Virus record (IMG/VR): IMGVR_UViG_3300020469_000008
Span: 64,001-128,000 of that record
Strand: one strand, 5' to 3'
Source: a virus
Taxonomy: Duplodnaviria; Caudoviricetes
DNA length: 64,000 nucleotides
Numbering within the stretch: the first letter of the stretch is position 1; the number at the start of each line of letters is the position of its first letter. The notes under the pieces are model-generated. The model saw only the letters and a program-made list of their open reading frames with translations, made no database searches and was not told the origin of the DNA. A program made the translations under genes and the position numbers. Positions 22,659-63,958 of the stretch are shown here, one piece after another.

Positions 22659-22733
22659 ATGATGATTAAACGAAAAAATCTTTTGTTGATAATTGAGAAG
22701 TTAAAAGTTTCATATCTGCGACAGAACACGTAG
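22659..22733 (+). CDS. 24-aa ORF MMIKRKNLLLIIEKLKVSYLRQNT
   Basis: AGGAGA SD, AATAGTTA upstream (22631-22638), and an N-terminus resembling the MKI.RRQL..IIE tag. Confidence 0.35.
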   Translation: MMIKRKNLLLIIEKLKVSYLRQNT

Positions 22734-22839
22734 AACAAATGATGGCGTAAGGCCTAGCCTAAATTAAACGTGTGAGATAATTTATAGTTATATAGTTAGT
22801 CTTTTTTGAGTATAATCTAAATTAAACAGGAAGGTAAAT

Positions 22840-23442
22840 ATGCTTTGGAAATATAATGTTGCCCCAGAGGTAAAAGAGCTTGAGTTGCATCACAACCCAG
22901 TAATTATCACAGTAAATAAGTTTGATGAAGATTCAGCAAAAGAATTTAGAACAAAAGTTGCCATGGCACACAACACAGGTCAAAAAATTATTCCTGTTGT
23001 GATTGATTCATATGGCGGGCAAGTTTATTCTTTAATGTCAATGATATCTACAATTAAAAATTCTGAATTACCAATTGCAACTATTGTAGAAGGAAAAGCA
23101 ATGAGTTGTGGCGCAATTTTACTTTCTTTTGGCACTGAAGGATACAGATTTGTAGACAAAGATTCAACAATAATGATTCACGATGTCTCATCTGGCCAGT
23201 TAGGTAAAGTTGAAGAAGTTGTTGCAAGCGCAAAAGAAACTGAAAGATTAAATGAAATCGTCTACAAAATGATGGCTCAAAATTGTGGTAAAAAGGACGA
23301 TTATTTTTTAAGACTTGTTGATAAGAAAAAACATGCAGACTGGTTTCTTGATGCGAAAGAATGTGTTAAACACAATTTGGCAAATCACATTAGAGTCCCT
23401 AAAATTAGTGTTAATGTGGATGTTACTATCGAATTCGAATAA
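22840..23442 (+). CDS. clpP: ClpP-like serine protease
   Basis: IDSYGGQVY, GKAMSCGAILL (catalytic Ser), MIHD (His) and DWFLDAKECV. TATAAT at 22811. Confidence 0.88.
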   Translation: MLWKYNVAPEVKELELHHNPVIITVNKFDEDSAKEFRTKVAMAHNTGQKIIPVVIDSYGGQVYSLMSMISTIKNSELPIATIVEGKAMSCGAILLSFGTEGYRFVDKDSTIMIHDVSSGQLGKVEEVVASAKETERLNEIVYKMMAQNCGKKDDYFLRLVDKKKHADWFLDAKECVKHNLANHIRVPKISVNVDVTIEFE

Positions 23443-23472
23443 TTAAGAATATAAAAATAGGGAGGCTTGAAA

Positions 23473-23895
23473 ATGAAAAAAATTAATAGAGATGAATTGC
23501 GTAAATTGATTAATGAATCAATGAGTATCTTGTCGCGACAGGACGCAGAAGTTGATGCATTTATCGATAAAATTGAAAGAATATCAAATGGTAATGCAGA
23601 ACACCCAATGGTAATAACTGATACAATTGTCAGCATGAATCCTGCAACGAGTATGGGAAGTTACTTGTTAGATTATATTCGCGCGCTACCTAGTATGGCA
23701 GATCAATACCCGATTTATCGACAAAGAGCACAGCGTATCAAAGATGTTTTGCTAGCTTTTTTGTTCGCTCTAAATGATCGACACGGCCCACTTGCAGATG
23801 AAAAGACAGCCGCGAATACACCGTATGCACTTGACTTTGTTAAAAAAGCTCTCAGTGTTTTAAAATCAATTGATTACAATCCGAGATACAATTGA
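23473..23895 (+). CDS. Hypothetical protein with basic N-terminal tag (MKKINRDELRKLINE)
   Basis: GGAGG SD and AATAATTA at 23438-23445. Confidence 0.75.
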   Translation: MKKINRDELRKLINESMSILSRQDAEVDAFIDKIERISNGNAEHPMVITDTIVSMNPATSMGSYLLDYIRALPSMADQYPIYRQRAQRIKDVLLAFLFALNDRHGPLADEKTAANTPYALDFVKKALSVLKSIDYNPRYN

Positions 23896-35546: not shown

Positions 35547-36458
35547 TTAAGCAGTTGCAGCATCAGCTGCTGCTGAAAATAACATTCCAGCCACATTTGA
35601 TGAACCTGGGAATATTAAATCAAAACCAGCTTTAGCAAAATCATTTGCAGCTTGTTTCGCAGCAGACTTGCCTTCTTTTACGTCCCCAGCTGTCTTTTGA
35701 ATATATTCTAACATTTCTGTATATAACTTTTCTGGAGCGTTTTCTAATTCTTTCTTTTGTCTTTTAAATTCTTTTTTAATTTCATCGAAAAAATTAGAGC
35801 TAATTACACCATCTGTTAATAGATCCAAAGCAACGCCTTCTTGTTTCATTGAGACTTTATTATCTTTGACTTCTATAAGCTCAGCAGCTAAATGCTGAAT
35901 CATTTCCTTTTCACCGTAATTCTTGATACCTAAATTAGCAGTTACTTCGGCAAACCCATCTTTACTATCAAAGTCTGAATCAGTTAAATCCATACCATAC
36001 TGTTTTACTCTTTTAGCTCTGTCACTATTTAGGTCGTCATACATCTTGCGCAAATTTCTTAATGCCCCTTCGACAGTACTTAAATTGTCAATTGTATTAA
36101 TTAATATTGCCGGTACTATTGAGTAAGCTGCAATAACAGCCGCGCCTAAACCAAAGGCACTCGCTCCGGCCGCTAAGCTTTCTCCAGACAAAAAACCGAT
36201 CTTTGATAATGCTCCACCGTATTTTGCAAGATAATCATCAAAATTACTAGTTGTAACTTTTTTAACTACGTCGTCCAGCACACTTAATGAGTTATTGAAA
36301 TCTGAGAGTATACTTTGGTCTGTAATTATGTCCTTCGCTACAAAATTAGCAAACTCACCTGATACTGACTTAAGCTCGTTAAGCATTTGGCTATTTCTTT
36401 TATTAGCAAATAGAAACTCTAGAATTATTGTATTGAGTTGTCTTTTTGAAATTTTCAT
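35547..36458 (-). CDS. Hypothetical protein with basic N-terminal tag (MKISKRQLNTIILE)
   Basis: ATG 36458 with GCGGAG SD, and GATATATA on the minus strand at 36489-36496. Confidence 0.8.
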   Translation of the reverse strand: MKISKRQLNTIILEFLFANKRNSQMLNELKSVSGEFANFVAKDIITDQSILSDFNNSLSVLDDVVKKVTTSNFDDYLAKYGGALSKIGFLSGESLAAGASAFGLGAAVIAAYSIVPAILINTIDNLSTVEGALRNLRKMYDDLNSDRAKRVKQYGMDLTDSDFDSKDGFAEVTANLGIKNYGEKEMIQHLAAELIEVKDNKVSMKQEGVALDLLTDGVISSNFFDEIKKEFKRQKKELENAPEKLYTEMLEYIQKTAGDVKEGKSAAKQAANDFAKAGFDLIFPGSSNVAGMLFSAAADAATA

Positions 36459-39510: not shown

Positions 39511-40413
39511 ATGAGATTATCGAAAAGCCAGTTAAGTCTAATTATTGAAAACTATTTATTAGAAAGCGTTAATACAGAATCTATACGTTCTGAATTTGAA
39601 AAAGCAAGAGATCAACTTAAACAAGAATTTTTAAATTCAGATAAATTTGATAAAGTTGTAAGGGCTAGTGTTGGTAAAGGTTTAGACATGACGCATCTTT
39701 ATGTAGTTCCAAAAGATGATCCAATCAATAAGAATCCTGAGTTTTCTGCTTATGAAGGTTATGCACTTCACGTAAAATTTGTAAGGGGTGAAGAAAGACC
39801 TAAAAAAGAATATTTTGATACGGACATAATAAAAGACAAAGAATTGGAAAGCAAGTTTAGTTCAAAGCCTATTGTAAATCCAATTGTTGTTATATTTGAA
39901 AAAAATATAAAATCAAAAATTAGCCTTAAGCGCTTATTACTTCATGAGCTCGGTCACGTAAAAAACAATTTTTTAAAGTTTTATGCCGGAATAGATTTGA
40001 ATGTTAATGAGGTTCGAGCGGTACTTCGAAAAGATTTTCAAGGAAAGTCTATCGGTAAAATTGTAAATATACTTAGATCTGAAAAGCGCTTAGGTAGAAT
40101 TAACCCACCAGGTTTTTTAAGGCTAGTAGAACGACTTAAAAAATATTATGATGGCGTTTTTGCAGATCCAGCAGATGAATTATCAGTTGACGAGTTTGCT
40201 GTTAGAATATCGGCTTTGCAAAGAGACATTGTTGCGCAAGCTTCAGTTTCACCCCGTGCTGAAGAAGTTATGTCATTTACAAAAATGGAACGTAAATATG
40301 GGATAGACGCAGCCGGCTTAGCACTATTTTTGGAAAAAAATGTTACATTTGAAAAGATACAAGCAGTGGCACAAAACATTAAAAAAAGTAACACAAAAAG
40401 TGCAACAGGGTAA
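39511..40413 (+). CDS. HExxH metallopeptidase-like protein with basic N-terminal tag
   Basis: MRLSKSQLSLIIENYLLE, LLLHELGHVKN and a downstream DEF.VR. Confidence 0.6.
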   Translation: MRLSKSQLSLIIENYLLESVNTESIRSEFEKARDQLKQEFLNSDKFDKVVRASVGKGLDMTHLYVVPKDDPINKNPEFSAYEGYALHVKFVRGEERPKKEYFDTDIIKDKELESKFSSKPIVNPIVVIFEKNIKSKISLKRLLLHELGHVKNNFLKFYAGIDLNVNEVRAVLRKDFQGKSIGKIVNILRSEKRLGRINPPGFLRLVERLKKYYDGVFADPADELSVDEFAVRISALQRDIVAQASVSPRAEEVMSFTKMERKYGIDAAGLALFLEKNVTFEKIQAVAQNIKKSNTKSATG

Positions 40414-42247: not shown

Positions 42248-42275
42248 TCGATAATTAAGCGAGATATTTTCAACG

Positions 42276-42315: not shown

Positions 42316-43707
42316 ATGAAAATTACACGACGACAATTGAGACGACTATTAAGTGAAAGACTGTTAGTAGAAGCATCTGCTGAAGAATTAGCAAATATGA
42401 AGGGCACATATTCTATAAACCCACAGTCTGCGCAGTCACTAGGATTCGCCGGGGCTCAATCAGGCGCCGGACAAATAAAGGTCGGTCCTCGAGGCAACGT
42501 GAACGTTGGAACTAAGGATGGAAATTTTATCCGTGAAATCAAACCATCAGAAGTCACTCCGGAGCAACTAAATTACATAACACTCGGGTATGATAGAAAA
42601 CAAGCAGCAAATAATACCGTCATGGGGGAAATGAGCACTTATTTCAGAAAAAATGCAGGGTACTACAAGGTCAACAATCAATCCGGTGTACCTGCAGGAG
42701 CCACACACATTAGAATTTATGGTGATGCTAAATACCGATATATCAATTTCAATGAAAAACCAGAAAAATATGTAGGTGCCAAAGAACCAATTGCACCCTC
42801 TGTATTCCTCGGTTGGAAAAGCTTCATCGATGGTTTGACGAAAGACAGCAACCCGAGCAGTGCTGATACTTCCACTGAAGGTGAAACAGACACCAGCGCT
42901 GAAAGAGACGGTGAACAGCAACAACAACAGCAGCAACAACAGCAACCAAAACCAGAAAAGAAGAATAAACCAAAAAAATCAGCTGATAAAGATAAGAAAG
43001 TTGCTTTCATAAGAAAAGTTATTGGTGATGACGCTCCTGGCAAGTGGAACAAAGAATCAGATAAAAAGTGGAAAACTTGGGTCGAAGGGCCATACTACGC
43101 AGCAGGCGTACGCACATTTCAAAACTTTTATGCGATGGTGCAATTAGGTAAAAACAACAAAACTAATGCAACAGAAGAGGATTTTGATGCAGCTCACAAA
43201 GAAAACAACGCTGTCAGTTTAGCTAAATTAGCGGGATTCAAACCAACAATTTCAGGTGTCTACAACATGTGCAAAGAAATTGATGAAATGTCGAAAGAAG
43301 ATCTTCAAGCTACAGCAATGGCAATAACTGCTACTACTGAAGGAGAAACAAACACCGCGGCGAGCAAAGCAGTGGACAAAGATGAAGTAATAACTCAATC
43401 ATTTACCGACGATATTAAGGCTGAGATGTTTGGGGATGAAATTGCCAAAATTCAAGATCCAAGAGAAAAGTCTCGAGCAGTCAAAAACGTAGTAAACGCG
43501 TACAACAAGAAGAAAGAAGAATTAAAGAAAAAAGGCGACGAGAGGGAAATTCAAAATTTGGATAGAGGATTTAAGCTTTTTAAGAAAAGGTCTAAAGCTT
43601 CGAAAGAATTTGAAGCTGCATCTGAAAAGGTTGATGAAATAAAAGACCTGCAAGAATCGTTAAGCAGGGGCGCACTATATAGAAAGCATTACTACGGAAG
43701 ATACTAG
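42316..43707 (+). CDS. Hypothetical head-internal-type protein (N-tag MKITRRQLRRLLSE, poly-Q, C-tail ESLSRGALYRKHYYGRY)
   Basis: GATAATTA at 42250 and 42282, with a GGAGA SD. Confidence 0.8.
   Translation: MKITRRQLRRLLSERLLVEASAEELANMKGTYSINPQSAQSLGFAGAQSGAGQIKVGPRGNVNVGTKDGNFIREIKPSEVTPEQLNYITLGYDRKQAANNTVMGEMSTYFRKNAGYYKVNNQSGVPAGATHIRIYGDAKYRYINFNEKPEKYVGAKEPIAPSVFLGWKSFIDGLTKDSNPSSADTSTEGETDTSAERDGEQQQQQQQQQQPKPEKKNKPKKSADKDKKVAFIRKVIGDDAPGKWNKESDKKWKTWVEGPYYAAGVRTFQNFYAMVQLGKNNKTNATEEDFDAAHKENNAVSLAKLAGFKPTISGVYNMCKEIDEMSKEDLQATAMAITATTEGETNTAASKAVDKDEVITQSFTDDIKAEMFGDEIAKIQDPREKSRAVKNVVNAYNKKKEELKKKGDEREIQNLDRGFKLFKKRSKASKEFEAASEKVDEIKDLQESLSRGALYRKHYYGRY
42916..42945 (+). repeat. Poly-Gln tract (10 CAA/CAG codons)
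   Basis: cag caa caa caa cag cag caa caa cag caa. Confidence 0.9.
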
Positions 43708-44869: not shown

Positions 44870-44886
44870 AACAAAAGGAGGATTTT

Positions 44887-46097: not shown

Positions 46098-46467
46098 AAA
46101 ATATCCAAAGATTTTTAAGCAGCGAGAATTAGACAAAGCTGTTACAGCAATGTGTTATGGAATCGCATGTGGTGATGGATGGTATACGTTGATTGACGAG
46201 ATGTGTGGAAATATACAAAATCGTATAGAAAATGTCAATAGAAATAAATCAGAAGAAGAACATCTCGACTGTCAGGCCACCCAAGTAAAAGAGAAATTTG
46301 GTGGGCTTCGTTTTTATGTTCAAGGGAGTGACGATTTTATTGACGGGATTATTGATTTAGCAGAGTCAATGTCATATCGAATCTGTTCAAAATGTGGTAA
46401 TCAATCTTCACCCCAGAAAAAACGTGGGTGGATTTATGCTTTATGTGACAATTGTCAAAATGGTTAA
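46066..46467 (+). CDS. Conserved phage hypothetical protein
   Basis: KYPKIF, CGDGWY, QVKEKFGGLRFY and two CxxC motifs. Confidence 0.75.
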   Translation: MKKELQNKLFEKYPKIFKQRELDKAVTAMCYGIACGDGWYTLIDEMCGNIQNRIENVNRNKSEEEHLDCQATQVKEKFGGLRFYVQGSDDFIDGIIDLAESMSYRICSKCGNQSSPQKKRGWIYALCDNCQNG

Positions 46468-46494
46468 TAATTATAAAGTAGATTGGAGTTTATA

Positions 46495-47019
46495 ATGAAA
46501 ATAACACGTAGACAATTAAGGCAATTGGTTGTAGAAGCAGCGATGGTAAGCGATGATCCTTTGATAATGCAAGTTACTAGTATGAACAGTTACTATGATC
46601 TAGTTGAGGTTTGCGAAAGAACAAACAATGTAGGGTTAGTAAACGCTTTATTGAAAGCAGTTAGAGAAAGAAACGTTGGCGGATTAAAACACATCGGTAG
46701 ATTTGGGATCGGTTTTATTCCTGTTGATCGCCCTGGACAACCAGCATCTTACAAGGTAACATATGCAGATACACAAAGAGCAGTAAAGGAAATTGATGAA
46801 AAATCTTACAAGTATTTAAATTATAACTTAAAACTCCAAGATAGCGGCGCATTGGCTCATTTATTTAATCCGTGTGCAAAAGCATTGAAAACAGCAGCTA
46901 AAGAGGCGGGAAGATTAATACAAGATGCTATCGATAATCCAGATCGCTATGCTGCACCTGAAAGAACATTTTTGCAAAAAGCAGGGAGTTTTTTAACAGG
47001 AAAAGGATATAGCGAGTGA
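46495..47019 (+). CDS. Hypothetical protein with basic N-terminal tag (MKITRRQLRQLVVE)
   Basis: AATAATTA at 46466-46473 and a GGAG SD. Confidence 0.8.
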   Translation: MKITRRQLRQLVVEAAMVSDDPLIMQVTSMNSYYDLVEVCERTNNVGLVNALLKAVRERNVGGLKHIGRFGIGFIPVDRPGQPASYKVTYADTQRAVKEIDEKSYKYLNYNLKLQDSGALAHLFNPCAKALKTAAKEAGRLIQDAIDNPDRYAAPERTFLQKAGSFLTGKGYSE

Positions 47020-47033
47020 AGTTACTAAGAAAA

Positions 47034-47062
47034 GTGTAATCTTAAACTCCCTGTGTTATAAT
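47034..47062 (+). promoter_or_regulatory. sigma70-type promoter GTGTAA-N17-TATAAT with extended -10
   Basis: Exact spacer and TGn-TATAAT upstream of dnaE. Confidence 0.75.
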
Positions 47063-47091
47063 AAAAATAAAAACACAAGGAGTTTACTTAT

Positions 47092-50000
47092 ATGGACATT
47101 AAGCTAATTACACCACCCGATCGTTTTGTAGGTTTTCACGGCCATACAGGGTTTTCTGTCTTTGACGGTTTAGGTTATCCATCTGATCATATCGACTTTG
47201 TACTAAAAAATGGTATGGATGCTTGGGCTTTAACTGATCACGGTAATGGCTCCGGGCTAGCACACGCTTTTAAACATGCACAGAAGGTAAAAAAGCAAGG
47301 CCACAAGTTTCGACAGATCTACGGTTGTGAATTCTACTTTGTACCTTCTCTTAAAGATTGGCGTTCTGATTATGAACAGTCTAAGATAGACCGAGCTAAT
47401 GCCAAACTTAAAGCACTGAAAGAAGAAGAAGAAGGCGGCCATATTATCGAAAACGAAGAAGAAACTAAATCCTTTGATCTAGGTAAAGACGAATGGAAGC
47501 GCCGTTATCATCTGGTAGTTACTGCTCAAAACCGTGAAGGTTTAGGTAACTTGTTTACTCTAATTAAACGTGCCTATACTGACGGATTTTATAGATACCC
47601 TCGCATTGACTTTGATTTACTAAAACAATATGGTAAAGGGTTAACAGTTTCGACAGCTTGTCTTGGTGGTATTTATTCTAATCGTATTATGCGTGGTAAT
47701 GCTTTAAAAATACCTGAAGAACAAATACAGAAAGAGTTGATGTATTTATCTGATCGATTTGTTGATGCTGTTGGTGAAGATAATTTTTATCTAGAGGTCC
47801 AGTTTAATAGACTTAAACAACAACATTTAGTAAATCATCATCTACTTCGACACTCTGATGCAACTGGTTTGCAACTTATTGCGACTCCTGACTCTCATTA
47901 CTATTCTCCAGATAAGTGGGAGGCCCGCGAGCTTTATAAAAAGTTAGGCTGGATGGGTAATGACCCGTCTCCTCTCCCTGAGTTTGAGGATTTAAAGTGT
48001 GAGCTTTATCCTAAAAATGCACAACAAATGTGGGACGAATTTACACGGCACTATGATGAATACAAAGATACTTACCAGGGCTATGAAGAAAAGATTAAAA
48101 GGTCAATTGAAATCACACACGACATTGCGTGGCAAAAGTGTGAAGATTGTTGGATTGATACTAATGTTAAGCTTCCCGATTTCAACAAACCTGGCGAAAC
48201 TGCTTTTCAACAACTTGCAAAAAAAGTCAAAGCAGCCCTCATTAAGGAAGGACTTCATACCAATGCAGAATACGTTGCCCGGGCAAAAGCCGAACTCGAT
48301 GACATTAAATACCTCGGGTTCGAAAACTACTTCTTAGTAATGTATGAAGTGTTTCATAAGGCAGCTGATCATACTCTGTTTGGCGCCGCGCGTGGTTCTG
48401 GTGGTGGTTCTCTTGTAAATTTCTTGTTAGGTATCACACAGGTTGATCCGCTTAAGTACGATTTACTATGGGAACGTTTTCTTGGGCGTCATCGTACATC
48501 CTGGCCCGATATTGATTCTGACGCTGGTGATCGTGATGCACTAATTAATGCAGCTCGCGAGCTATACGGTGATGAAGCTGTTATCCCGGTTTCTAACTTT
48601 AACACACTTAAACTTAAATCACTGGTGAAAGATATCGCTAAGTTCTACGGTGTTGACTTTGGGGAAGTAAATAAAATGACCGGCCCACTCCAAGATGAAG
48701 TAATGTCACAAGCTCGAGACGAAAATACTGAGAAATCTGTATTTGTTCTTAAACACGAGGATTGTATGAAATATTCAAAAGGATATGGTTCTTTTATGGA
48801 AAAATATCCAAAAGTAAAGGATCATATTGAAGCATTGTTCATGCAGAATCGTAGTATAGGTCGACATGCAGGTGGTGTCATTATCGGTCCACCGCAAGCG
48901 CTAGAACAGTCAATGCCTATTATCGGTGTTCGCGGTGAACTACAAACGCCTTGGACAGAAGGTATGAACTTTCGTAATCTTGAAGACAACGGTTTTATTA
49001 AGTTTGACTTTCTTGGTCTGACATTATTAAAAGACGTTGAAAATTGTATTCGTCGTATTATTACACGTGAAACAGGCACTGAACCTACATTCCTTGAAAT
49101 ACGTGACTGGTTTGACAAGCATCTTAACTGTCGTTATGTTAAACAAGACGATGAAGAAGTGTGGAAACACGTGTATCATCAACGTCGCAAGACAGGTGTG
49201 TTTCAATTTACTGCAGAAGGCGCGCGGAGATTCTGTGAAGACGCTAAACCGACGACCATTATTGAACTGGCTGCATTGACTGCAATCTATCGTCCTGGTC
49301 CGCTTCGTGCAAATGTTCACAAGAAGTACGTAAAGGACAAGTTACGCGCTGATGAAATACACTATGCACACCCTATCATTAAGGAAATACTCGGGCCCAC
49401 TTTTGGTCACGTTACTTTCCAAGAACAGTTCATGCTTCTTGCACAAAAATTAGGTGGATTTACTCCGGCTGAATCAGATAAATTGCGTAAGACTCTAGTT
49501 AAGAAATCACTTGATACTATGGGTAAAAAAGGTGATGAACGCGAAGCAGCACGTGTTAAGTTTGTGACGGGTGCAAAAGAAATTAATGGCGTCCCTGAGC
49601 ATATTTCACAAGAGCTGTGGGAACGTATTGAGTTCTTTTCAGTATATGGTTTTAATAAATCACATGCTGTTGCATATGCTATTGGTTCTTACTACGCTGC
49701 TTGGTTGCACACATATTACGAAACTGACTGGTTAGGTACTATTCTCGAATCAGAAAACAATAATCCAAATGCACTATCAAAAGCAATTGCTGAAATTAAA
49801 GAAATGGGATACCGTATTGAGTTACCAGATGTGAATGAATCAGGTACATACTGGCAATGGTCAGAAAACAAAAAGGCATTTATTCCCCCATTGACCTCTA
49901 TCAAGGGTGTGGGTAAAACTGCAGTTGTTGAAATCATGCAAAATCGACCTTATGAGTCTGTCGCTGATATGTTGTTCGATGAAAATGGTAAATGGCGCCA

Positions 50001-50610
50001 TTCTAAGCTTAATAAAACCGGATTCTCTTCACTATGTCAGGTCGAAGCATTTAACGGACTACAAGAAATGTGGGATGGTACAATAGATAATCACAAACAG
50101 TTGTATAACATTATTATTGAAAACTACAATGTATTGAAGAAAAGTAAGTGGGGCATGACAATGCGCAAAGCAAAGAAAGAAAATGCGCCTGAAATACTTC
50201 CTATCCTTATAGAACAAACAAGAGATACTGAAGACTGGGGTCGCATTGATAAATTAACAATGTATCAAGAACTTTGTTCAGCAACACGTGATGATTTAGC
50301 ATTCCCTGATGATATGATGGAAAAGATTAAAAACGCTAATGTTAAGTCTGTGCTTAATATGAAACCGGGCGAAAAAGGAGTTGCTTGGTGTTGTATTGTT
50401 GAAATGATTAAAAAGACAACAAAGAATAAAAAGACATTCTATCGTCTTAAGATTACTGATTACGAAAACAATACAGGTTGGCTTCGAATGTGGGGTAATA
50501 AACCATCATCAATGGTGCCATACTCAATCTGGTTAGTCCAAGCGTCTAATGATCCTAACTGGGGTGCTTCAACAAGCGTAGCAAAAGTAAGACCTTTAGT
50601 AACTGATTAG
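47092..50610 (+). CDS. dnaE: DNA polymerase III alpha subunit (family C)
   Basis: PHP motifs HGHT.FS.FDG, TDHGN, GCEFY and DSHY. Also ARGSGGGSLV, catalytic PDIDSD, GRHAGGV, KFDFLGL, YRPGP and GFNKSHA. Confidence 0.97.
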   Translation: MDIKLITPPDRFVGFHGHTGFSVFDGLGYPSDHIDFVLKNGMDAWALTDHGNGSGLAHAFKHAQKVKKQGHKFRQIYGCEFYFVPSLKDWRSDYEQSKIDRANAKLKALKEEEEGGHIIENEEETKSFDLGKDEWKRRYHLVVTAQNREGLGNLFTLIKRAYTDGFYRYPRIDFDLLKQYGKGLTVSTACLGGIYSNRIMRGNALKIPEEQIQKELMYLSDRFVDAVGEDNFYLEVQFNRLKQQHLVNHHLLRHSDATGLQLIATPDSHYYSPDKWEARELYKKLGWMGNDPSPLPEFEDLKCELYPKNAQQMWDEFTRHYDEYKDTYQGYEEKIKRSIEITHDIAWQKCEDCWIDTNVKLPDFNKPGETAFQQLAKKVKAALIKEGLHTNAEYVARAKAELDDIKYLGFENYFLVMYEVFHKAADHTLFGAARGSGGGSLVNFLLGITQVDPLKYDLLWERFLGRHRTSWPDIDSDAGDRDALINAARELYGDEAVIPVSNFNTLKLKSLVKDIAKFYGVDFGEVNKMTGPLQDEVMSQARDENTEKSVFVLKHEDCMKYSKGYGSFMEKYPKVKDHIEALFMQNRSIGRHAGGVIIGPPQALEQSMPIIGVRGELQTPWTEGMNFRNLEDNGFIKFDFLGLTLLKDVENCIRRIITRETGTEPTFLEIRDWFDKHLNCRYVKQDDEEVWKHVYHQRRKTGVFQFTAEGARRFCEDAKPTTIIELAALTAIYRPGPLRANVHKKYVKDKLRADEIHYAHPIIKEILGPTFGHVTFQEQFMLLAQKLGGFTPAESDKLRKTLVKKSLDTMGKKGDEREAARVKFVTGAKEINGVPEHISQELWERIEFFSVYGFNKSHAVAYAIGSYYAAWLHTYYETDWLGTILESENNNPNALSKAIAEIKEMGYRIELPDVNESGTYWQWSENKKAFIPPLTSIKGVGKTAVVEIMQNRPYESVADMLFDENGKWRHSKLNKTGFSSLCQVEAFNGLQEMWDGTIDNHKQLYNIIIENYNVLKKSKWGMTMRKAKKENAPEILPILIEQTRDTEDWGRIDKLTMYQELCSATRDDLAFPDDMMEKIKNANVKSVLNMKPGEKGVAWCCIVEMIKKTTKNKKTFYRLKITDYENNTGWLRMWGNKPSSMVPYSIWLVQASNDPNWGASTSVAKVRPLVTD

Positions 50611-50637
50611 ATAATTAGTAAAGTATAGGGGTGTTGC

Positions 50638-51732
50638 ATGCAAATAAGCAGATTAAATCTAAAAAAACTCATAAAAACGTTATTGAACGAAGATTACGAA
50701 GGTTTTATTGGCGGCCCTTCACCTGGGGAAGGTAAAGTTACAACAATGTCTGGGGACGAATTAAATAGAATTTCTGCTGAACTTAAAGGCAGAGACTTAA
50801 GTCAGATACCACCAAGTTTGCAAAAGAAAATTGGAAAGATAGCAGATAGAGCACCAGCAAAATTAAAAAAAAGTGCAGCAAGATATTTTAAAGGAAAATC
50901 ATTTTTAAAGAAAGCAAGTCAAGTTTTTGGAAGATCTTTTCCTGATTCTGATGTTTTTCTTGTGCCTTTTGCTGGGGGATCCCGAGAAGCTGCTGATTTA
51001 ATTTTTGGTTATGACGACGATTTTACACAGAGTGACTTTGCATATTCAAGGGCAACGCCGGAACAACGAGAGTATTTTTCTGACAAAGATTATAATCTAA
51101 TGTCACCTCAGCGGATGGCGATGGCTAGAAACAGGCTTACATCGATGGATATAAGAAGACATTTAATTTTTGATCTATTTGCAGAAGGAATTAATATGCT
51201 TTCAAACTTAGGTGTAACAATTCAAGAAGCAGAAAAACTAAACATAGAAAACGACATTGTTTTTGTACCCATTGCGTCAGCACAACCTGGAAAATTTTTG
51301 GCAACACCCCACATGATTCTACATGCACTGATAGACACAACAGGTGAAAAAGGTGGTACAGAGTTAGATGAAATAGTCGAGCCGCTACATCGAGAAATGT
51401 TGTCAATTGCAAATGATCTTGGTCTAAGTAGAAACTTAGTAAAGGAAGCCTATCCAGACAACGAATATTTCGATGCTTTCGAGTCACTAGCAACCACAAA
51501 AGCTGGGCGGATGAAAATGATACAAACAACTTCTGATATGGTTTCTGAGATGTTAGTACAGGAATTAGCACAATATGGAAATAAAGGCTTGAGATATAAT
51601 CTAAGTAGTCTAGCACAATTTCCAGAGGCAACAAAAAGTAAACTTGCAGACTTCAAGGTTTCTATTGAGAATACAGCAGCACAAATTAGAGAGTTGCTGA
51701 AAGGAAAAATTGTCTTAATAAATGTTGTGTAG
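50638..51732 (+). CDS. Hypothetical protein with basic N-terminal tag (MQISRLNLKKLIKTLLNE)
   Basis: GATAATTA at 50610-50617. Confidence 0.8.
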   Translation: MQISRLNLKKLIKTLLNEDYEGFIGGPSPGEGKVTTMSGDELNRISAELKGRDLSQIPPSLQKKIGKIADRAPAKLKKSAARYFKGKSFLKKASQVFGRSFPDSDVFLVPFAGGSREAADLIFGYDDDFTQSDFAYSRATPEQREYFSDKDYNLMSPQRMAMARNRLTSMDIRRHLIFDLFAEGINMLSNLGVTIQEAEKLNIENDIVFVPIASAQPGKFLATPHMILHALIDTTGEKGGTELDEIVEPLHREMLSIANDLGLSRNLVKEAYPDNEYFDAFESLATTKAGRMKMIQTTSDMVSEMLVQELAQYGNKGLRYNLSSLAQFPEATKSKLADFKVSIENTAAQIRELLKGKIVLINVV

Positions 51733-51736
51733 CTTT

Positions 51737-51765
51737 GTGTAAAATTAATTTTTGCAATATACTAT
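51737..51765 (+). promoter_or_regulatory. sigma70-type promoter GTGTAA-N17-TACTAT (probably leaderless)
   Basis: Exact spacer. GTG 51772 lies 7 nt after the -10 hexamer. Confidence 0.6.
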
Positions 51766-51771
51766 TGTTAA

Positions 51772-51972
51772 GTGATTACTATAAACGAAAAAACATTTAA
51801 AGTTGGAGAACTTTGTATAGTCTCTCACCGAGACAGGAGTGTACTAAAACATGTATACGGGATAATCGTCAAAAGAAATCCTTTAAAGCTCCGAAGAAAC
51901 TTTTATTCTGTTTTTTATGATGGTAAGATTAAAGAACACGAAAACTTATTTATTGCAAAACTAGAGGAATAG
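51772..51972 (+). CDS. Hypothetical small beta-rich protein
   Basis: First gene of the operon that contains the kinase-TS fusion. Confidence 0.6.
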   Translation: MITINEKTFKVGELCIVSHRDRSVLKHVYGIIVKRNPLKLRRNFYSVFYDGKIKEHENLFIAKLEE

Positions 51973-58923: not shown

Positions 58924-58924
58924 C

Positions 58925-59383
58925 ATGAAAATATCAAGAAGACAACTTAGAAAAATTATTTTAGAAGCATTTCCAAGAGATGAATATGGATATGATGCTT
59001 TAAAAACACAAGCAGAATTAGACGATGGCGACGGAGAATACGCACTGTCATCATCACAAAGACACTCTTTAGACCGCCAAGAAGAATTAAAAGATATGAA
59101 ACTCAATGATGATAATGCTTACCTTGTGCATGTATACTTAGCCTCTGCACTTAGTGACGGTGATAAGATGGCAAGAGTTCCAGCGTGGGGTGTGGCTGCT
59201 AGTCAGCTGTCGACACGTTTTTCAGCAAATTCATCTGATGAAATAATGCCTGAAGTTGAAGAGGTATTAAATAGCTTTTTATCTAACCCGAAACTTGGGA
59301 TGATGGATAAAAGAAGACTCCAACGCGAAATACCTAAATTTAAGGACATGTTACGAAGAGCGATGGATAATCCTGAATTTTAA
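58925..59383 (+). CDS. Hypothetical protein with basic N-terminal tag (MKISRRQLRKIILE)
   Basis: Tag at the N-terminus and a GAGG SD. Confidence 0.8.
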   Translation: MKISRRQLRKIILEAFPRDEYGYDALKTQAELDDGDGEYALSSSQRHSLDRQEELKDMKLNDDNAYLVHVYLASALSDGDKMARVPAWGVAASQLSTRFSANSSDEIMPEVEEVLNSFLSNPKLGMMDKRRLQREIPKFKDMLRRAMDNPEF

Positions 59384-59669: not shown

Positions 59670-60065
59670 ATGAAAAAATTAAATAGAAGAAAGCTAAGAG
59701 ATGTAGTTTTAAAAGAAACAAAAAAAATCCTTAAAGAATTTCGAAACATCAATCAACTTGACGTGGTACATGTAGCACCTGTTGTTAGAGACTTTAATAA
59801 AAAAGTCGTTGCTGCGCTCGCAAAATACAATACAAATCAACTGCCTCAAGATTTATCTGAAAATGGTAGGCAGATAGCATACCAGTTTGAAACAATGATT
59901 GCATCAACAAATTCAATCATGGGTCCAGATCGCACAACTGATGATAGAATTGCAACATGTGATAGAGCAATCAATGATATACAAGAGATGAAAATATTAC
60001 TTAAACAATCATCCCGCGTTGATTATGATGACACAGTCCTTACATCTAGACCGTATGATAACTAA
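59670..60065 (+). CDS. Hypothetical protein with basic N-terminal tag (MKKLNRRKLRDVVLKE)
   Basis: Tag at the N-terminus. Confidence 0.7.
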   Translation: MKKLNRRKLRDVVLKETKKILKEFRNINQLDVVHVAPVVRDFNKKVVAALAKYNTNQLPQDLSENGRQIAYQFETMIASTNSIMGPDRTTDDRIATCDRAINDIQEMKILLKQSSRVDYDDTVLTSRPYDN

Positions 60066-60414: not shown

Positions 60415-60809
60415 TGTTTTTACTTGCTTTTATAAGCACACTATGGGCAGCTGATGTTGATTATGCAAATGTTGATAAAGGTGATGTAGCGCCATTTACT
60501 GGCAAGCTGCTAACACATGATGCATTGTCACAAATAATTACAACTCATGAAAAAGAATTACTTCAAGCAGATCTGGATAAAGAATTTGAACTGCAAAAAG
60601 TGACAGACACACTTAATCTTAAATATGACTTATACTATGCGCGGGCAGAAGCTGACAAAGCGATGTATCAACAAATGATTGAACTGCGTGACGAAGAAAT
60701 AAAAATACAATCGCGTAAAGATTGGATTCAACGTCTAGCTTTCTTTGGTGGTTTTGCATTAGGGACAGCAACGACAATAGGAATTACGTATTCTGTTAAT
60801 CAAAATTAG
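60414..60809 (+). CDS. Spanin-like / secreted membrane-anchored protein
   Basis: Signal peptide, GDVAPFTGKLL, coiled coil and a C-terminal TM. No lipobox Cys. Confidence 0.45.
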   Translation: MFLLAFISTLWAADVDYANVDKGDVAPFTGKLLTHDALSQIITTHEKELLQADLDKEFELQKVTDTLNLKYDLYYARAEADKAMYQQMIELRDEEIKIQSRKDWIQRLAFFGGFALGTATTIGITYSVNQN

Positions 60810-60848
60810 TATCGACATAATAATTAGTACATATCACGCGAGGTTGAA

Positions 60849-63536
60849 ATGAAAGTAGCAGTAAAGAAACGCGTTTTATTTAATTTATTAAAAAATCGAT
60901 TAAATGAAAATAGAATGCAAGGTGGCGATATGGCGGGTCGTTTAATACACCCATTTAACATCCAGTCACCAAACTCCGATCCTTTTGGATTCTACGAAGA
61001 CGACGAGGAAACTCCGATAAAAGTTTCAGATCATATGTCTGTACAATTGTCTGTTCCAAAGATGCCTGTTGAAGATGAGGATTTTGTACCTAGTACAATA
61101 ACTGAATTGTGTAACGCTGCAACTTTAATATGCAAAGAGGTTCCTTTAACACAAATTGAATATTATTATCGGCAGTTACATATGCTTTTAGATAGAGCAC
61201 TCGATAGAGAGTCAGACCAAGGCCTAAATATGGTTAACGAATCTTTTGAAATTTCCAGAAATACAACTATAAAAGATTTCACCATGATATCAGAATCGTC
61301 TAGGATAAGGGTAAGACAAAGAAAAAACACGCCAACAGAAGCTCTTCCTGCTGAATTGCAACCGGAAGACTTGCCTGGATTTGCTGAAGCAACTAATAAA
61401 GATGAATATATGAGAGGCTATAACTTTGCTGCTGACTTTGAAGTCGAAGGTAAATCTGAAGATGAGTTATATGAACATGATATATATGTCGCAGCGCAAT
61501 CAGATGATTTCAAAGCTGGTTATTCTGCGGGTGACGAGGTTGCAACTGGAATACAGTATGATGTAAGTGCTGAAAGGCCACTTTTTCCGACTAGGGCAGG
61601 AGAAGAGAAAAGAGGCGTAGGAATTCCGTTGTTTGATAGTTACGAGCAGTTTTTAGCAAGAGGCACTGAACTAGACCCAGTAACAGGAGATGTAGACACA
61701 TCAGCATATGATAATGCAACACCCCAAGAAAAAGCTGCTATGGATGCTAGTGCTGCGCTCCAAGAAGTTTTTAAAGAAATCCATTCTGAAGCTACAGCAA
61801 TAATGATGGATCCAAAAATGGCAAGAGAATTTGGTGCGTTAATGACGCCTATAACACAAGAAATGGGTTTAGGTAGTACTGATATTCTAACACCTTTAAA
61901 CGTTGGGCGAATGTTTTCATACGTCAACAGAATGAAAGATCAAACAAAGAAACTCCAGAAAATACAAGATCTTCAAATGAAAATGTTCACAGTAATAAGT
62001 GAAGCTTTAGACAAAACTTTGAAACGAAAGCCTAGAATAAGAAAAGCGATTCAAGGGTATGCTTCAGAAGCGAACGTCCCGTTAGATCAGTTTATGTTAA
62101 AATTAAAAGAAGACATAACTAATTCTTATACACAATACGGTTCGACCAGTAGGGTTGCAGCGCAAGGTGGTGATGCCGCGGTTGTCAATAGTGCAATTGA
62201 TAAGTTGTTTGCAGTTTTTATTAAAACTTTAAAATTACCAGGTACAGACAATAAATTTAAAGACAGGAGTCACTTTTATAGAAACGTTGATTTAAATAGC
62301 TTAGAAGAGATACTTGACGGTTTTAAGGCAGTAATTGATAACCAACTTAAAGATAAAACAAATCCTGACTTATATGTTGTTCGTGATAGAGACGTAACGG
62401 TAGGACTTACAGAAGAAGAAATTATGGGCACAGTTGAAACATATATTAATTTAGAATTTGAACAAGCTGAAAGCACACAGACAGGTGACCCAACTAGCGA
62501 AGAAACTCAGGACACAATTGATTTAGAGAATGAAACCACTGATGAAGTATCTGAAATCGAAGCTGACGATTACTTAACTGCACTTGAAAGATATGGGAAG
62601 AGATATGCTCAAGGAAAAAATGTAGAATTCCAAGATATGGCACCATTTTTTGGATATTCAAACACCTCTGGCATGCGCCAGTACTATTTAAAAGACATTT
62701 TAACGAAACTTCAAATGTTAGCTTTTACAGACACAGATGGACAACCATCGAGTGTGGGAGACCTACAGGATGAGAATGCTGTTCTAATTGTAAACAAAAT
62801 GGTTGAAGTTGTACAGACAAACCTAATACCTGAATATGAAAAGAAAGTAAACAAAGGCCAGACTAAGCCTAGAAATATTGACAAGAAAAACAAAGTTAAG
62901 GAAGTTGGTACCACAGAGATCTTAGCAGCATTAAAGGAACAAATCTTACCTAGTCTAGAATTGCTACAGAAATTATTTGCTCAAGGATATAAGTTTACAG
63001 AAATAGCAGCTGACGAAAATCACGTTGCTTATGATGCACTTCAGCTAGTTGGAGGTTCAGTCTTTAGAGAAGTTCAGGACGCGCCTATATCAAATGCTTT
63101 AAGTAAAATGTTGAAGAAAAGAAATGAATTAATTGCTGATGAAATAATTGCAAGAGTAGGACAAGGTAAAGTTAACAGAACAGATATTACCGACAAAGGT
63201 GGTATTGCAGAATACTTCACAGGTCTCAAAGGGTTGCCAGATTTTGATGCTGATCCGACATCAAAAAAAGGAAAAATTGTGGGGAAACTTATCAACATTG
63301 GAATCACAGCAGAAGTTTTTGCTGAAGTTTTAGTAGAAACAGACATAATTTGGAACGAAGTAATTCTTGATGAACTCCAATATGAGGGAGGCGAATATCG
63401 TGATGAGATAGTTGCGGGTTACAAAAGCTTAGTAGACGATGAAAAATTAATGAAGAAAACAATTTTGTCAGGAATTAAGGCAATAGCACAAGAAAAACAC
63501 TATATGAATTTAGAAAAGCAACCGGGCAGAAAATGA
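60849..63536 (+). CDS. Large hypothetical (probable head-internal/ejection) protein
   Basis: 895 aa, AATAATTA at 60819-60826, a basic N-terminus ending RLNE and a further VNE site. Confidence 0.75.
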   Translation: MKVAVKKRVLFNLLKNRLNENRMQGGDMAGRLIHPFNIQSPNSDPFGFYEDDEETPIKVSDHMSVQLSVPKMPVEDEDFVPSTITELCNAATLICKEVPLTQIEYYYRQLHMLLDRALDRESDQGLNMVNESFEISRNTTIKDFTMISESSRIRVRQRKNTPTEALPAELQPEDLPGFAEATNKDEYMRGYNFAADFEVEGKSEDELYEHDIYVAAQSDDFKAGYSAGDEVATGIQYDVSAERPLFPTRAGEEKRGVGIPLFDSYEQFLARGTELDPVTGDVDTSAYDNATPQEKAAMDASAALQEVFKEIHSEATAIMMDPKMAREFGALMTPITQEMGLGSTDILTPLNVGRMFSYVNRMKDQTKKLQKIQDLQMKMFTVISEALDKTLKRKPRIRKAIQGYASEANVPLDQFMLKLKEDITNSYTQYGSTSRVAAQGGDAAVVNSAIDKLFAVFIKTLKLPGTDNKFKDRSHFYRNVDLNSLEEILDGFKAVIDNQLKDKTNPDLYVVRDRDVTVGLTEEEIMGTVETYINLEFEQAESTQTGDPTSEETQDTIDLENETTDEVSEIEADDYLTALERYGKRYAQGKNVEFQDMAPFFGYSNTSGMRQYYLKDILTKLQMLAFTDTDGQPSSVGDLQDENAVLIVNKMVEVVQTNLIPEYEKKVNKGQTKPRNIDKKNKVKEVGTTEILAALKEQILPSLELLQKLFAQGYKFTEIAADENHVAYDALQLVGGSVFREVQDAPISNALSKMLKKRNELIADEIIARVGQGKVNRTDITDKGGIAEYFTGLKGLPDFDADPTSKKGKIVGKLINIGITAEVFAEVLVETDIIWNEVILDELQYEGGEYRDEIVAGYKSLVDDEKLMKKTILSGIKAIAQEKHYMNLEKQPGRK

Positions 63537-63958
63537 GTAGATTATTAGAAAACATACTTAAAAATCGGCAGCAACAAAAATTAAATGAACTTGATATGAC
63601 AAAAAGTGGAACTGCAATGATGCGTCATTTAGGGAGTAATTTCCCATATGTTGATGATAACAATCTACCCATTGAGCCTGAGGGTGCTAATTGGAAACAA
63701 GTTCAGCAAAACGATAGAATATGTTTGCAAAAAACTTATGAGCTTGATGCAATAAAATTTTTAAAGTATTTTGTTAATGAGTTAATTCACCTTGCTGAAG
63801 AAATGTACCACCATCCAGAAATTTTAATTAATCACACAGAAGTCACTATAACATTATTTACACGCGACTTAAATGACGTAACTGATCGTGATATCCAGAT
63901 GTCTAAAAAGATTGATGAAGTAATTGAAGATATTAACGTCATAAAGTTTAGAGGGTAA
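63533..63958 (+). CDS. Pterin-4a-carbinolamine dehydratase (PCD/PhhB)-like protein with N-terminal extension
   Basis: L.KTYE.......FVN.L...AEE..HHPEI.....V.I.L.T.D...VT..D..M...ID. Confidence 0.8.
   Translation: MSRLLENILKNRQQQKLNELDMTKSGTAMMRHLGSNFPYVDDNNLPIEPEGANWKQVQQNDRICLQKTYELDAIKFLKYFVNELIHLAEEMYHHPEILINHTEVTITLFTRDLNDVTDRDIQMSKKIDEVIEDINVIKFRG

What the first reader, a model, noticed from the sequence alone, without database searches (positions are those of the whole stretch)
22659..63958. Recurrent basic N-terminal address tag on about 10 unrelated late proteins
Seen: MKKINRDELRKLINE (23473), MKISKRQLNTIILE (36458, minus), MRLSKSQLSLIIE..LLE (39511), MKITRRQLRRLLSE.LLVE (42316), MKITRRQLRQLVVE (46495), MQISRLNLKKLIKTLLNE (50638), MKISRRQLRKIILE (58925) and MKKLNRRKLRDVVLKE (59670), plus looser versions at 60849 and 63533. 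The bodies that follow are unrelated, and most genes have the late motif upstream. Established: T4 internal proteins carry a short N-terminal capsid-targeting sequence removed by gp21 after (I/L)-x-E. Inference: a portable capsid-targeting propeptide that lets the phage load diverse cargo for injection.
Basis: partly seen in the sequence, partly recalled or inferred. Interest (0 to 1): 0.8.

Follow-up and report, generated by a model that had tools for sequence, protein, structure and literature searches.

The report
Shared capsid-loading-like tag on phage proteins
An uncultured marine T4-related giant phage starts about one gene in ten with the same 14-residue basic peptide, which ends in the cut site of its own head protease; this peptide most likely acts like phage T4's address label for loading proteins into the capsid, but on a much larger, fast-changing set of unknown proteins.

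Summary
A profile of the peptide MKITRRQLRKLIxE finds 27 clear copies in the 202-kb phage record. All 27 sit at ORF starts and none is internal. Seven lie in this window (23473, 36458-, 39511, 42316, 46495, 50638, 58925). 59670 is borderline. 60849 and 63533 are not members.

- **Bodies:** they share no detectable similarity and almost none has a known domain.
- **Cut-site motif:** every tag ends in [LIVM]-x-E at residue 13-18.
- **Protease and capsid:** the phage encodes a T4 gp21-type prohead protease. Its major capsid protein keeps L-R-E|A where T4 gp23 is cut.
- **Head module:** a conserved gene next to the protease carries a tag-like N-terminus.
- **Level of selection:** synonymous codons vary, so selection acts on the peptide.
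- **Turnover:** in relatives whose DNA polymerase is 91-95% identical, the tagged genes are missing, or other tagged genes with different bodies lie in the same neighbourhood.
- **Distribution:** 1,126 protein clusters worldwide match the profile. The 150 best-scoring almost all carry 2-4 tags in one ORF.

Best reading (about 0.65): a T4-CTS-like capsid-targeting propeptide removed by the head protease. Packaging and cleavage are untested. The tag has no sequence similarity to T4's CTS. I class it as a new variant of a known kind. This scan had already reported the same tag on neighbouring windows of this genome (e1-5319753, e1-5319801, e1-5319763).

The parts
23473..23895 (+). Tagged gene, 140 aa. 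N-terminus MKKINRDELRKLINE, the one-residue-longer subtype; I-N-E ends at residue 15.
   Evidence: HMM E 1.4e-6; no Pfam family; ATAATTA 34 nt upstream and TATAAAAATA, a word also found upstream of the capsid gene
35547..36458 (-). Tagged gene, 303 aa. N-terminus MKISKRQLNTIILE.
   Evidence: PSSM 30.3 bits; HMM E 2.1e-7; GGAG 7 nt upstream; no PHROG or significant Pfam family
39511..40413 (+). Tagged gene, 300 aa. N-terminus MRLSKSQLSLIIE, then a second site L-L-E at residue 18.
   Evidence: HMM E 5.5e-5. In close relatives only one 28% hit at the syntenic place.
42316..43707 (+). Tagged gene, 463 aa. N-terminus MKITRRQLRRLLSE, then L-V-E at residue 19.
   Evidence: PSSM 37.5 bits. Its only homologue in 5.8 billion proteins keeps residues 1-22 at 73% identity, while the body is 38% identical over its C-terminal half only. 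ATAATTA lies 33 nt upstream.
46495..47019 (+). Tagged gene, 174 aa. N-terminus MKITRRQLRQLVVE. It sits between a conserved 133-aa gene and the DNA polymerase gene.
   Evidence: HMM E 6.2e-9. Absent from this slot in a relative with 95% identical polymerase; a different tagged gene fills the slot in another relative. ATAATTATAA lies 28 nt upstream.
50638..51732 (+). Tagged gene, 364 aa. N-terminus MQISRLNLKKLIK..LLNE, with L-N-E ending at residue 18. Lies directly after the DNA polymerase gene.
   Evidence: HMM E 3.4e-5. Five homologues of 28-82% identity all keep the tag, and an invariant E precedes the conserved body. The AF2 model puts a helix at residues 5-15, then a low-confidence linker. 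ATAATTAGTA lies 27 nt upstream.
58925..59383 (+). Tagged gene, 152 aa. N-terminus MKISRRQLRKIILE.
   Evidence: HMM E 6.7e-10; no homologue at the syntenic place in any of 38 relatives
59670..60065 (+). Borderline tagged gene, 131 aa. N-terminus MKKLNRRKLRDVVLKE, with L-K-E ending at residue 16.
   Evidence: HMM E 0.03-0.06. Same M-K-K-[IL]-N-R subtype as 23473 and as tags in relatives.
60849..63536 (+). Not a member of the tag family. 895-aa protein with its own conserved N-terminus (M-K/Q-V/I-x-V-K-K-x-V-L...), ending L-N-E at residue 20.
   Evidence: Not detected by the tag HMM at E<=10. Its orthologues keep this different N-terminus. ATAATTAGTA lies 29 nt upstream.
63533..63958 (+). Not a member. 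Pterin-4a-carbinolamine dehydratase with a short N-terminal extension.
   Evidence: Pfam PF01329 E 3.7e-16; not detected by the tag HMM
46467..46476 (+). Promoter-like word ATAATTA[GT][TA]A. Further copies start at 50611 and 60820. The shorter ATAATTA starts at about 23439 and 42283.
   Evidence: ATAATTA lies 12-62 nt (mostly 26-35 nt) upstream of 28 genes, against about 3 expected. These include the tail sheath, the scaffold-like gene and a lysin-like gene. Its timing class is inferred, not shown.

Best explanation
The 14-residue N-terminal peptide (consensus M-K-I-T-R/K-R-Q-L-R-K/R-L/I-I-x-E) is a capsid-targeting propeptide that works like the CTS of phage T4 internal proteins.

Inferred steps:
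1. The basic amphipathic helix docks each tagged protein onto the assembling prohead core.
2. The shell closes around the core.
3. The phage's gp21-type prohead protease cuts after the Glu of the terminal [LIV]-x-E and frees the body inside the head.
4. The body is later ejected with the DNA.

Shown:
- the tag, its strictly N-terminal position and its terminal protease-type motif;
- the protease gene;
- the same motif at the capsid protein's maturation position;
- a tag-like N-terminus on a conserved head-module gene;
- selection at the peptide level;
- cassette-like turnover of the tagged genes.

Not shown: binding, cleavage, packaging or injection.
For: 1. **27 clear tags in 202 kb.** All are at ORF starts and none is internal. 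That is about 10% of roughly 276 genes.
2. **Terminal motif.** 27 of 27 have [LIVM]-x-E ending at residue 13-18, against 14% of other genes in that range. In 308 tags from metagenomes, L8 is 99%, I/V12 is 97% and E14 is 95% conserved.
3. **Protease.** A Peptidase_S77 (T4 gp21) protease is present (98 bits; PHROG head maturation protease E 3.7e-53). gp21 cuts after L/I-x-E, and T4's CTS positions 8 and 10 govern processing (PMC9026906).
4. **Capsid protein.** Its propeptide keeps [LIV]-x-E|[A/S] at about residue 63 in 27 relatives and in 3 distant phages.
5. **Head module.** The gene right after the protease gene begins with x-K-L-S/T-R/K-x-x-L-K-x-I-V-K-E followed by two more phi-x-E sites. 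This is conserved in 44 relatives although the body is only 28-68% identical.
6. **Peptide-level selection.** L8 uses six Leu codons.
7. **Orthologues keep the tag** while the bodies diverge.
8. **Fast turnover.** Only 1 of 6 tagged genes, against 27 of 30 untagged genes, has a homologue at the syntenic place in the closest relative (Fisher p 8e-4). The slots are empty or hold other tagged genes with different bodies.
9. **Location and upstream word.** One array of tagged genes lies directly after the capsid gene. Some tagged genes share an upstream word with the sheath and scaffold-like genes.
10. **Multi-tag ORFs.** In metagenomic ORFs with several tags, internal tags are preceded by phi-x-E within 7 residues (71% against a 21% background). 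Such ORFs could therefore be cut into separate bodies.
Against: - There is no virion proteomics, no cleavage assay and no cultured member. Cultured relatives (Flavobacterium phage immuto, Microcystis phage Mel-JY01) lack the tag.
- The tag has no sequence similarity to T4's CTS MKTYQEFIAE. It is strongly basic (net +3 to +5), unlike T4's.
- [LIV]-x-E is a short motif. 14% of other genes have it in the same range by chance.
- The Glu upstream of internal tags is partly explained by an in-frame Shine-Dalgarno sequence (AAGGAG reads K-E).
- Identical codons are somewhat more frequent than expected (0.54 against 0.40), so some copies are recent duplicates or gene-converted.
- The timing class of the ATAATTA word is not established. 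It also precedes a DHH phosphoesterase gene.
Confidence: 0.65

Rival explanations
1. The peptide is a protease-removed propeptide, but not an address. It might keep the proteins inactive or soluble until the prohead protease becomes active. The proteins would reach the head by other means, or would not enter it at all.
For: Of the CTS features tested here, only the cut-site motif matches a known specificity. Nothing shows binding to a core protein.
Against: Residues 2-12, upstream of the cut site, are as conserved as the site itself (K2 90%, T4 91%, Q7 91%, L8 99%). A three-residue protease site would not need that. gp21-type proteases act inside the prohead (PMC9026906), so substrates must get there. 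The same N-terminus occurs on a conserved head-module gene.
Confidence: 0.1
2. The basic amphipathic helix targets the proteins somewhere other than the capsid. Candidates are the cell membrane, host or phage DNA, or an export route. The sequence T-R-R-x-L-R-K recalls the Tat motif S/T-R-R-x-F-L-K.
For: Net charge is +3 to +5 with a hydrophobic stripe at L8, L11 and I12. A twin arginine is present in most copies.
Against: There is no hydrophobic h-region after the tag. The highest 12-residue Kyte-Doolittle mean in residues 6-46 has a median of 0.44 and a maximum of 1.55. A conserved Glu follows at once, and there is no A-x-A site. This reading also does not explain the invariant phi-x-E, the tag-like N-terminus on the gene next to the protease gene, or the array next to the capsid gene.
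Confidence: 0.1
3. The tagged genes are one old paralogous family, descended from the conserved head-core gene next to the protease. Their bodies have diverged beyond recognition, and the N-terminus is simply their best-conserved part.
For: The core gene after the protease gene has a tag-like N-terminus. Tandem arrays suggest duplication. Identical codons are in excess.
Against: Bodies range from 90 to 449 residues and from pI 4.1 to 9.7. One carries a YkuD_2 L,D-transpeptidase domain (E 6.9e-32). BLASTP finds no body-to-body similarity. Even if this were true, the selective retention of the N-terminus would still need a function, so this is more an origin story than a rival mechanism.
Confidence: 0.1
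4. The conserved 42 nt act at the nucleic-acid level, either as a shared recombination site for swapping gene cassettes or as a translation-control element at the start of the mRNA.
For: The tagged genes behave as insertion/deletion cassettes between conserved genes. Codons in the tag are A-rich and more often identical than expected.
Against: Synonymous sites vary freely. L8 uses 6 codons, L11 uses 6, and R5, R6 and R9 each use 3-4. The conserved amino acids persist across relatives with a different consensus (RRII against RKLI). The tag is read in frame and always ends in Glu.
Confidence: 0.05

Closest known systems
Capsid targeting sequence (CTS) of phage T4 internal proteins IPI, IPII and IPIII (and the Alt propeptide), removed by prohead protease gp21
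   Same: Both are short N-terminal leaders shared by otherwise unrelated proteins and ending in L/I-x-E. The phage here has a gp21-family protease, and its capsid protein has the same kind of site. I recall T-even internal-protein loci as hypervariable, and the tagged genes here are hypervariable too. PMC9026906 already suggests the CTS as a way for T4-like phages to load various proteins.
   Different: There is no sequence similarity: T4 has MKTYQEFIAE (10 aa, net -1), read from NC_000866, and it scores -33 bits against this tag. This tag is 14 aa and strongly basic. It sits on 27 or more genes per genome instead of 3-4, scattered through replication and nucleotide-metabolism regions as well as next to the head genes. 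It also occurs 2-4 times within single ORFs in metagenomes. Function is untested.
Propeptides of head and ejection proteins of giant phages phiKZ, 201phi2-1 and SPN3US, cut by gp21-like proteases after S/A-x-E or A-x-E
   Same: These are large phages with many head-internal proteins, processed after Glu by a diverged gp21 homologue (PMC9026906, PMC7411985).
   Different: From the accounts read here, I saw no single shared leader peptide described for those propeptides. The cut motif differs (S/A-x-E against L/I/V-x-E). This phage is T4-like by capsid protein, portal and terminase, not phiKZ-like.
Hyperplastic internal-protein loci of T-even phages
   Same: Different bodies sit behind a conserved leader at the same genomic place in closely related phages.
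   Different: Here there are many slots per genome, next to conserved genes such as the DNA polymerase gene.
Encapsulin cargo-loading peptides (recalled, analogy only)
   Same: A short portable peptide directs diverse cargo into an HK97-fold shell.
   Different: Those peptides are mostly C-terminal, are not cleaved and bind the shell protein directly. There is no homology.

Membership tests
T4-type capsid targeting sequence (CTS) | Short N-terminal leader shared by proteins whose mature parts are unrelated | tested here: met
   27 ORFs share residues 1-14. The alignment loses all conservation after column 15. Bodies show no BLASTP similarity.
T4-type capsid targeting sequence (CTS) | Leader ends in the prohead-protease site L/I-x-E | tested here: met
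   27 of 27 have [LIVM]-x-E ending at residue 13-18, against 14% of other genes. E14 is 95% and I/V12 is 97% conserved in 308 metagenomic tags. Only the motif was tested; cleavage itself was not.
T4-type capsid targeting sequence (CTS) | The phage encodes a gp21-family prohead protease (Pfam PF03420, Peptidase_S77) | tested here: met
   98 bits against a cut-off of 27, at G000 41943-42356; PHROG 207 E 3.7e-53
T4-type capsid targeting sequence (CTS) | Sequence similarity to the T4 leader MKTYQEFIAE | tested here: not met
   T4 IPII and IPIII N-termini, read from NC_000866, score -32.9 bits on the tag PSSM and E>100 on the tag HMM
T4-type capsid targeting sequence (CTS) | The leader is sufficient to bring a foreign protein into the prohead, and is absent from the mature virion protein | not testable with these tools
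   Needs virion mass spectrometry or tag-GFP packaging. There is no cultured member.
T4-type capsid targeting sequence (CTS) | Expression together with head genes (late) | tested here: inconclusive
   7 of the 27 tagged genes (26%) have ATAATTA upstream, against 8% of other genes. That word also precedes the sheath, scaffold-like and lysin-like genes, but a DHH phosphoesterase gene too. T4's TATAAATA is absent.
Twin-arginine (Tat) signal peptide | The S/T-R-R-x-F-L-K motif is followed by a hydrophobic h-region and an A-x-A cleavage site | tested here: not met
   T-R-R-x-L is present, but no h-region follows. The highest 12-residue hydropathy has a median of 0.44 and a maximum of 1.55, and a conserved Glu sits at residue 14.

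The most novel reading that the evidence does not exclude
A widespread clade of uncultured marine T4-related giant phages loads dozens of fast-evolving, mostly orphan proteins per virion through one universal address peptide. Some of these would be made as multi-tag polyproteins that the head protease cuts apart. The tag would then be a sequence-only handle for listing more than a thousand families of injected phage effectors in the ocean, such as candidate anti-defence or host-takeover proteins.
Probability: 0.45. Interest if true: 0.8.

Novelty: new variant of a known kind. Interest (0 to 1): 0.62.

Why it matters
If the tag does load proteins into the capsid, this phage packs far more kinds of protein than T4 does: at least 27, against T4's three internal proteins plus Alt. 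The tag alone would mark which orphan genes in marine viromes encode injected proteins. T4's injected proteins include an anti-restriction factor (IPI) and the host-modifying enzyme Alt, so this is a class of practical interest.

The cassette-like turnover next to conserved genes points to an arms race. The multi-tag ORFs suggest polyprotein precursors, which I have not seen described for T4-like phages; no search was aimed at this point. The tag could also serve as a packaging label for engineering phages of marine hosts.

The principle itself (CTS plus gp21 cleavage) has been known since the 1990s, so this extends it and does not establish a new mechanism.

Tried and rejected
- **Complex prediction.** The scaffold-like protein (G000 44380-45852) was folded with the tagged protein at window 58925. 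The verdict was 'no answer', which counts neither for nor against binding.
- **Function of the bodies.**
  - Pfam and PHROGs give nothing for the tagged proteins in the window.
  - Of the 20 tagged proteins outside the window scanned with Pfam, only one has a clear domain (YkuD_2). One more has a sub-threshold GNAT hit.
  - The ESM Atlas gave no usable hit for 50638 or 42316.
  - The AF2 model of 50638 (pLDDT 61, pTM 0.61) had no PDB fold match at E<=0.001.
- **Searches that found nothing.**
  - The search for related loci with the 463-aa protein found no relative in IMG/VR.
  - megablast of 8.3 kb of the window found nothing in cultured phages.
  - tblastn of a three-tag protein found nothing in cultured phages.
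  - A literature search for the peptide found no paper.
- **Readings rejected.**
  - Tat or Sec signal, because there is no h-region.
  - RNA- or DNA-level element, because synonymous sites vary.
  - T4 late promoter upstream, because TATAAATA is absent.
  - 60849 and 63533 as members of the family.
- **Promoter class.** PHROGs on the genes behind the ATAATTA word did not settle its timing class.

Full report
**Context**

The window is bases 64,001-128,000 of a 202,054-bp IMG/VR virus record that CheckV rates about 70% complete. The phage is a distant T4 relative.
- It has a gp23-type capsid protein (Pfam PF07068), a T4-type portal and large terminase, and a gp21-type prohead protease (PF03420, 98 bits).
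- In the window it has a tail sheath, UvsX, DnaB, ribonucleotide reductase and a DnaE-like polymerase.
- By capsid protein, its nearest named relatives are Flavobacterium phage immuto (45% identity), Microcystis phage Mel-JY01 and the uncultured huge phage LR756508.
- Nothing in the cultured-phage collection matches at the DNA level.

**Observation**

I built a PSSM from the clear copies and scanned every codon position in all six frames of the whole genome.
- The 27 best hits (19.8-42 bits) all lie at an ATG or GTG a few codons after an upstream stop.
- Hits that are neither at an ORF start nor offset copies of a tag reach only 13 bits.
- An HMM of the first 16 alignment columns, run against 1,873 candidate ORF starts, gives the same 27 at E<=5.5e-5. 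The genome search with alignment A1 also returns exactly these 27.

Seven of the 27 are in the window: 23473, 36458 (minus strand), 39511, 42316, 46495, 50638 and 58925.
- 59670 is borderline (E 0.03-0.06). It belongs to a one-residue-longer subtype, M-K-K-[IL]-N-R..., shared with 23473 and with tags in relatives.
- 60849 and 63533 are not detected. 63533 is a pterin-4a-carbinolamine dehydratase. 60849 has a different N-terminus that its own orthologues conserve.

The alignment (A1) is conserved to column 15 and random afterwards. With the first 20 residues removed, the 35 clear and loose candidates give a single 21-residue BLASTP match among themselves. About 10% of the roughly 276 genes carry the tag.

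**Anatomy**

- **Consensus.** M-K-I-T-R-R-Q-L-R-K-L-I-x-E, with net charge mostly +3 to +5.
- **Terminal motif.** All 27 have [LIVM]-x-E ending at residue 13-18 (18 of them at residue 14), against 14% of other genes in that range.
- **Predicted structure.** In an AlphaFold2 model of the 50638 protein the tag is a helix (residues 5-15) followed by a low-confidence linker.
- **Not a signal peptide.** No hydrophobic h-region follows the tag.
- **Level of selection.** It acts on the peptide. The nearly invariant L8 uses six Leu codons, and so does L11. Identical codons are somewhat in excess (0.54 against 0.40 expected), as expected if some tandem copies are recent duplicates.

**Link to head assembly**

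According to PMC9026906:
- T4 gp21 cuts after L/I-x-E.
- The 10-residue CTS of IPIII is sufficient for packaging.
- CTS positions 8 and 10 control processing.
- The core holds gp21, gp22, gp67, gp68, the internal proteins and Alt.

In this phage:
- The capsid protein keeps Q-[VL]-L-R-E|[A/S]-N at about residue 63 in 27 relatives, and [IL]-x-E|A in immuto, Mel-JY01 and LR756508. I recall this as the position where T4 gp23 is cut.
- The head module runs terminase, portal, a 279-aa gene, protease, five genes without a family, then the capsid gene.
- The gene right after the protease gene (176 aa) begins with x-K-L-S/T-R/K-x-x-L-K-x-I-V-K-E-C-L-[VI]-E-I-L-[SA]-E. That is a tag-like helix followed by three tandem phi-x-E sites. 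It is conserved in 44 relatives whose bodies are only 28-68% identical.
- The first array of tagged genes starts 110 bp after the capsid gene.
- The protease itself has V-L-R-E at residues 7-10. The review points out LIE-9 in T4 gp21 in the same region.

**Upstream signals**

- T4's late promoter word TATAAATA is upstream of no gene here.
- ATAATTA is enriched eightfold upstream of genes: 26 genes against 3.2 expected in the -60 to -8 region.
- With a slightly wider region it precedes 28 genes, mostly at 26-35 nt. These include the tail sheath, the scaffold-like gene, a lysin-like gene, 7 of the 27 tagged genes and 60849. It also precedes a DHH phosphoesterase gene.
- Late timing is therefore plausible but not shown.

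**Relatives**

Arrays of tagged genes occur in many of them.
- The consensus drifts by lineage, for example RRII[RK]E instead of RKLIxE.
- LR756508 (484 kb) has about 11 matches.
- The cultured phages immuto and Mel-JY01 have none that is convincing.
- Orthologues keep the tag. The five homologues of the 50638 protein (28-82% identity) all have it, and an invariant Glu precedes the conserved body.
- The only homologue of the 42316 protein keeps residues 1-22 at 73% identity, while the body is 38% identical over its C-terminal half only.

**Turnover**

I fetched 38 loci around relatives of the window's DNA polymerase.
- In the closest one (95% identical polymerase), 27 of 30 untagged genes of window 36.9-63.5 kb have a homologue, but only 1 of 6 tagged genes does, and that one at 28% identity (Fisher p 8e-4).
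- The slots on either side of the polymerase gene are empty in that relative.
- In a second relative (93%) a different 398-aa tagged gene lies before the polymerase gene.
- In a third (91%) tagged genes of 815 and 311 aa lie after it.
- The tagged genes thus behave as exchangeable cassettes between conserved genes. I recall the same description for T-even internal-protein loci.

**Global distribution**

- A profile search of 1.84 billion representative proteins gave 1,126 hits at E<=0.001. This is a lower bound, because a single tag barely reaches that threshold.
- Of the 150 best hits, 149 hold 2-4 tags in one protein, and 148 have a tag at the N-terminus plus internal copies that mostly start with Met.
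- One of these is an uninterrupted ORF under table 11. A related contig has an ORF whose internal tag starts with ATA instead of ATG.
- Of 160 internal tags, 144 have a Glu within 7 residues upstream (48% expected). In 71% of those a hydrophobic residue lies two positions before the Glu, against a 21% background (p about 1e-38). An internal tag is therefore bracketed by protease-type sites.
- Caveat: the Lys/Arg-Glu pair there is also what an in-frame AAGGAG Shine-Dalgarno sequence encodes. These ORFs may be recent fusions that still start internally.

**Cargo**

Of the 27 bodies, only one has a clear domain. It is a YkuD_2 L,D-transpeptidase-type domain (E 6.9e-32) at G000 146839, outside the window. 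Bodies are 90-449 residues long, and their pI values fall into two groups, 4.1-6.1 and 8.4-9.7. Pfam, PHROGs, the Atlas and a PDB fold search gave nothing for the window's members.

**Comparison with the known**

The closest known system is the T4 CTS. Functionally the parallels are close.
- The membership features that sequence can test are met, except sequence similarity. T4 IPII and IPIII begin MKTYQEFIAE (read from NC_000866) and score -33 bits on the tag PSSM.
- The review already proposes that the CTS lets T4-like phages load varied proteins. PMC3012670 describes T-even internal proteins as diverse defence proteins that share only a CTS.
- New here are the peptide itself, its use on about a tenth of the genes, its spread across a large uncultured clade, the cassette behaviour next to core genes, and the multi-tag ORFs.
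- No paper in the held library contains the peptide.
- Earlier notes of this scan reached the same reading on neighbouring windows of this genome. I re-derived it independently.

**Verdict**

It is the best explanation, at about 0.65, but packaging and cleavage remain untested. I class it as a new variant of a known kind.

Noticed in passing
Metagenomic proteins P0001-P0150; loci L097:1-1983 and L095:12711-14228: Single ORFs carry 2-4 copies of the tag, one at the N-terminus and the others internal, mostly starting with Met. Each internal tag is preceded by phi-x-E and by an SD-like purine run. These may be polyprotein precursors or recent gene fusions that still start internally.
   Followed up: partly
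window 46060-51972 compared with L130, L103, L101 and L104: The slots on both sides of the DNA polymerase gene are empty, or hold different tagged genes, in relatives whose polymerase is 83-95% identical. This is cassette-like gain and loss at gene boundaries.
   Followed up: yes
G000 146839-147825 (L089:18839-19822), outside the window: One tagged protein has a YkuD_2 L,D-transpeptidase-type domain (E 6.9e-32). It may be a cell-wall enzyme carried in the capsid.
   Followed up: no
window 60849-63536: This 895-aa orphan protein has its own N-terminal helix (M-K/Q-V/I-x-V-K-K-x-V-L...), conserved among orthologues and ending in phi-x-E at about residue 20. It has the ATAATTAGTA word upstream. 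It may be a separate propeptide of a conserved virion protein.
   Followed up: partly
window 63533-63958: A phage-encoded pterin-4a-carbinolamine dehydratase (PF01329, E 3.7e-16).
   Followed up: no
Genome-wide; in the window at about 23439, 42283, 46467, 50611, 55055, 55925, 57104 and 60820: The word ATAATTA lies mostly 26-35 nt upstream of 28 genes, an eightfold enrichment, and T4's TATAAATA is absent. A second group of enriched words (TATACTA, GTATAAT, CACAACCAA) suggests another promoter class.
   Followed up: partly
G000 42452-42982 and 43027-43239 (L087:2452-2982 and 3027-3239): Two small genes right after the protease gene have tag-like N-termini. The first is conserved in 44 relatives and has three tandem phi-x-E sites. 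They may be prohead core proteins using the same address.
   Followed up: partly
L100 (LR756508.1) 17787-23663; L098 (phage immuto) 2730-4030: Other recurrent N-termini occur in related phages: M-R/K-L/F-K-x-[IL]-L-[LK]-E on five 250-280-aa ORFs of LR756508, and M-x-(D)-N-F-[ND]-L-[RK]-x-F-L-x-E-N-K-L-T on two adjacent immuto genes. They could be lineage-specific tags or paralogues.
   Followed up: no
G000 50491-51522 (L087:10491-11522): Two adjacent 169-aa paralogues lie inside the first array of tagged genes. Both start MPKVTYT.SKGLFQE and neither has the tag.
   Followed up: no
window 43704-44774 (-): A lysin-like gene on the minus strand (PHROG endolysin, E 8e-11) has ATAATTA upstream. It is poorly conserved in close relatives (at most a 28% identical hit), much like the tagged genes around it.
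   Followed up: no
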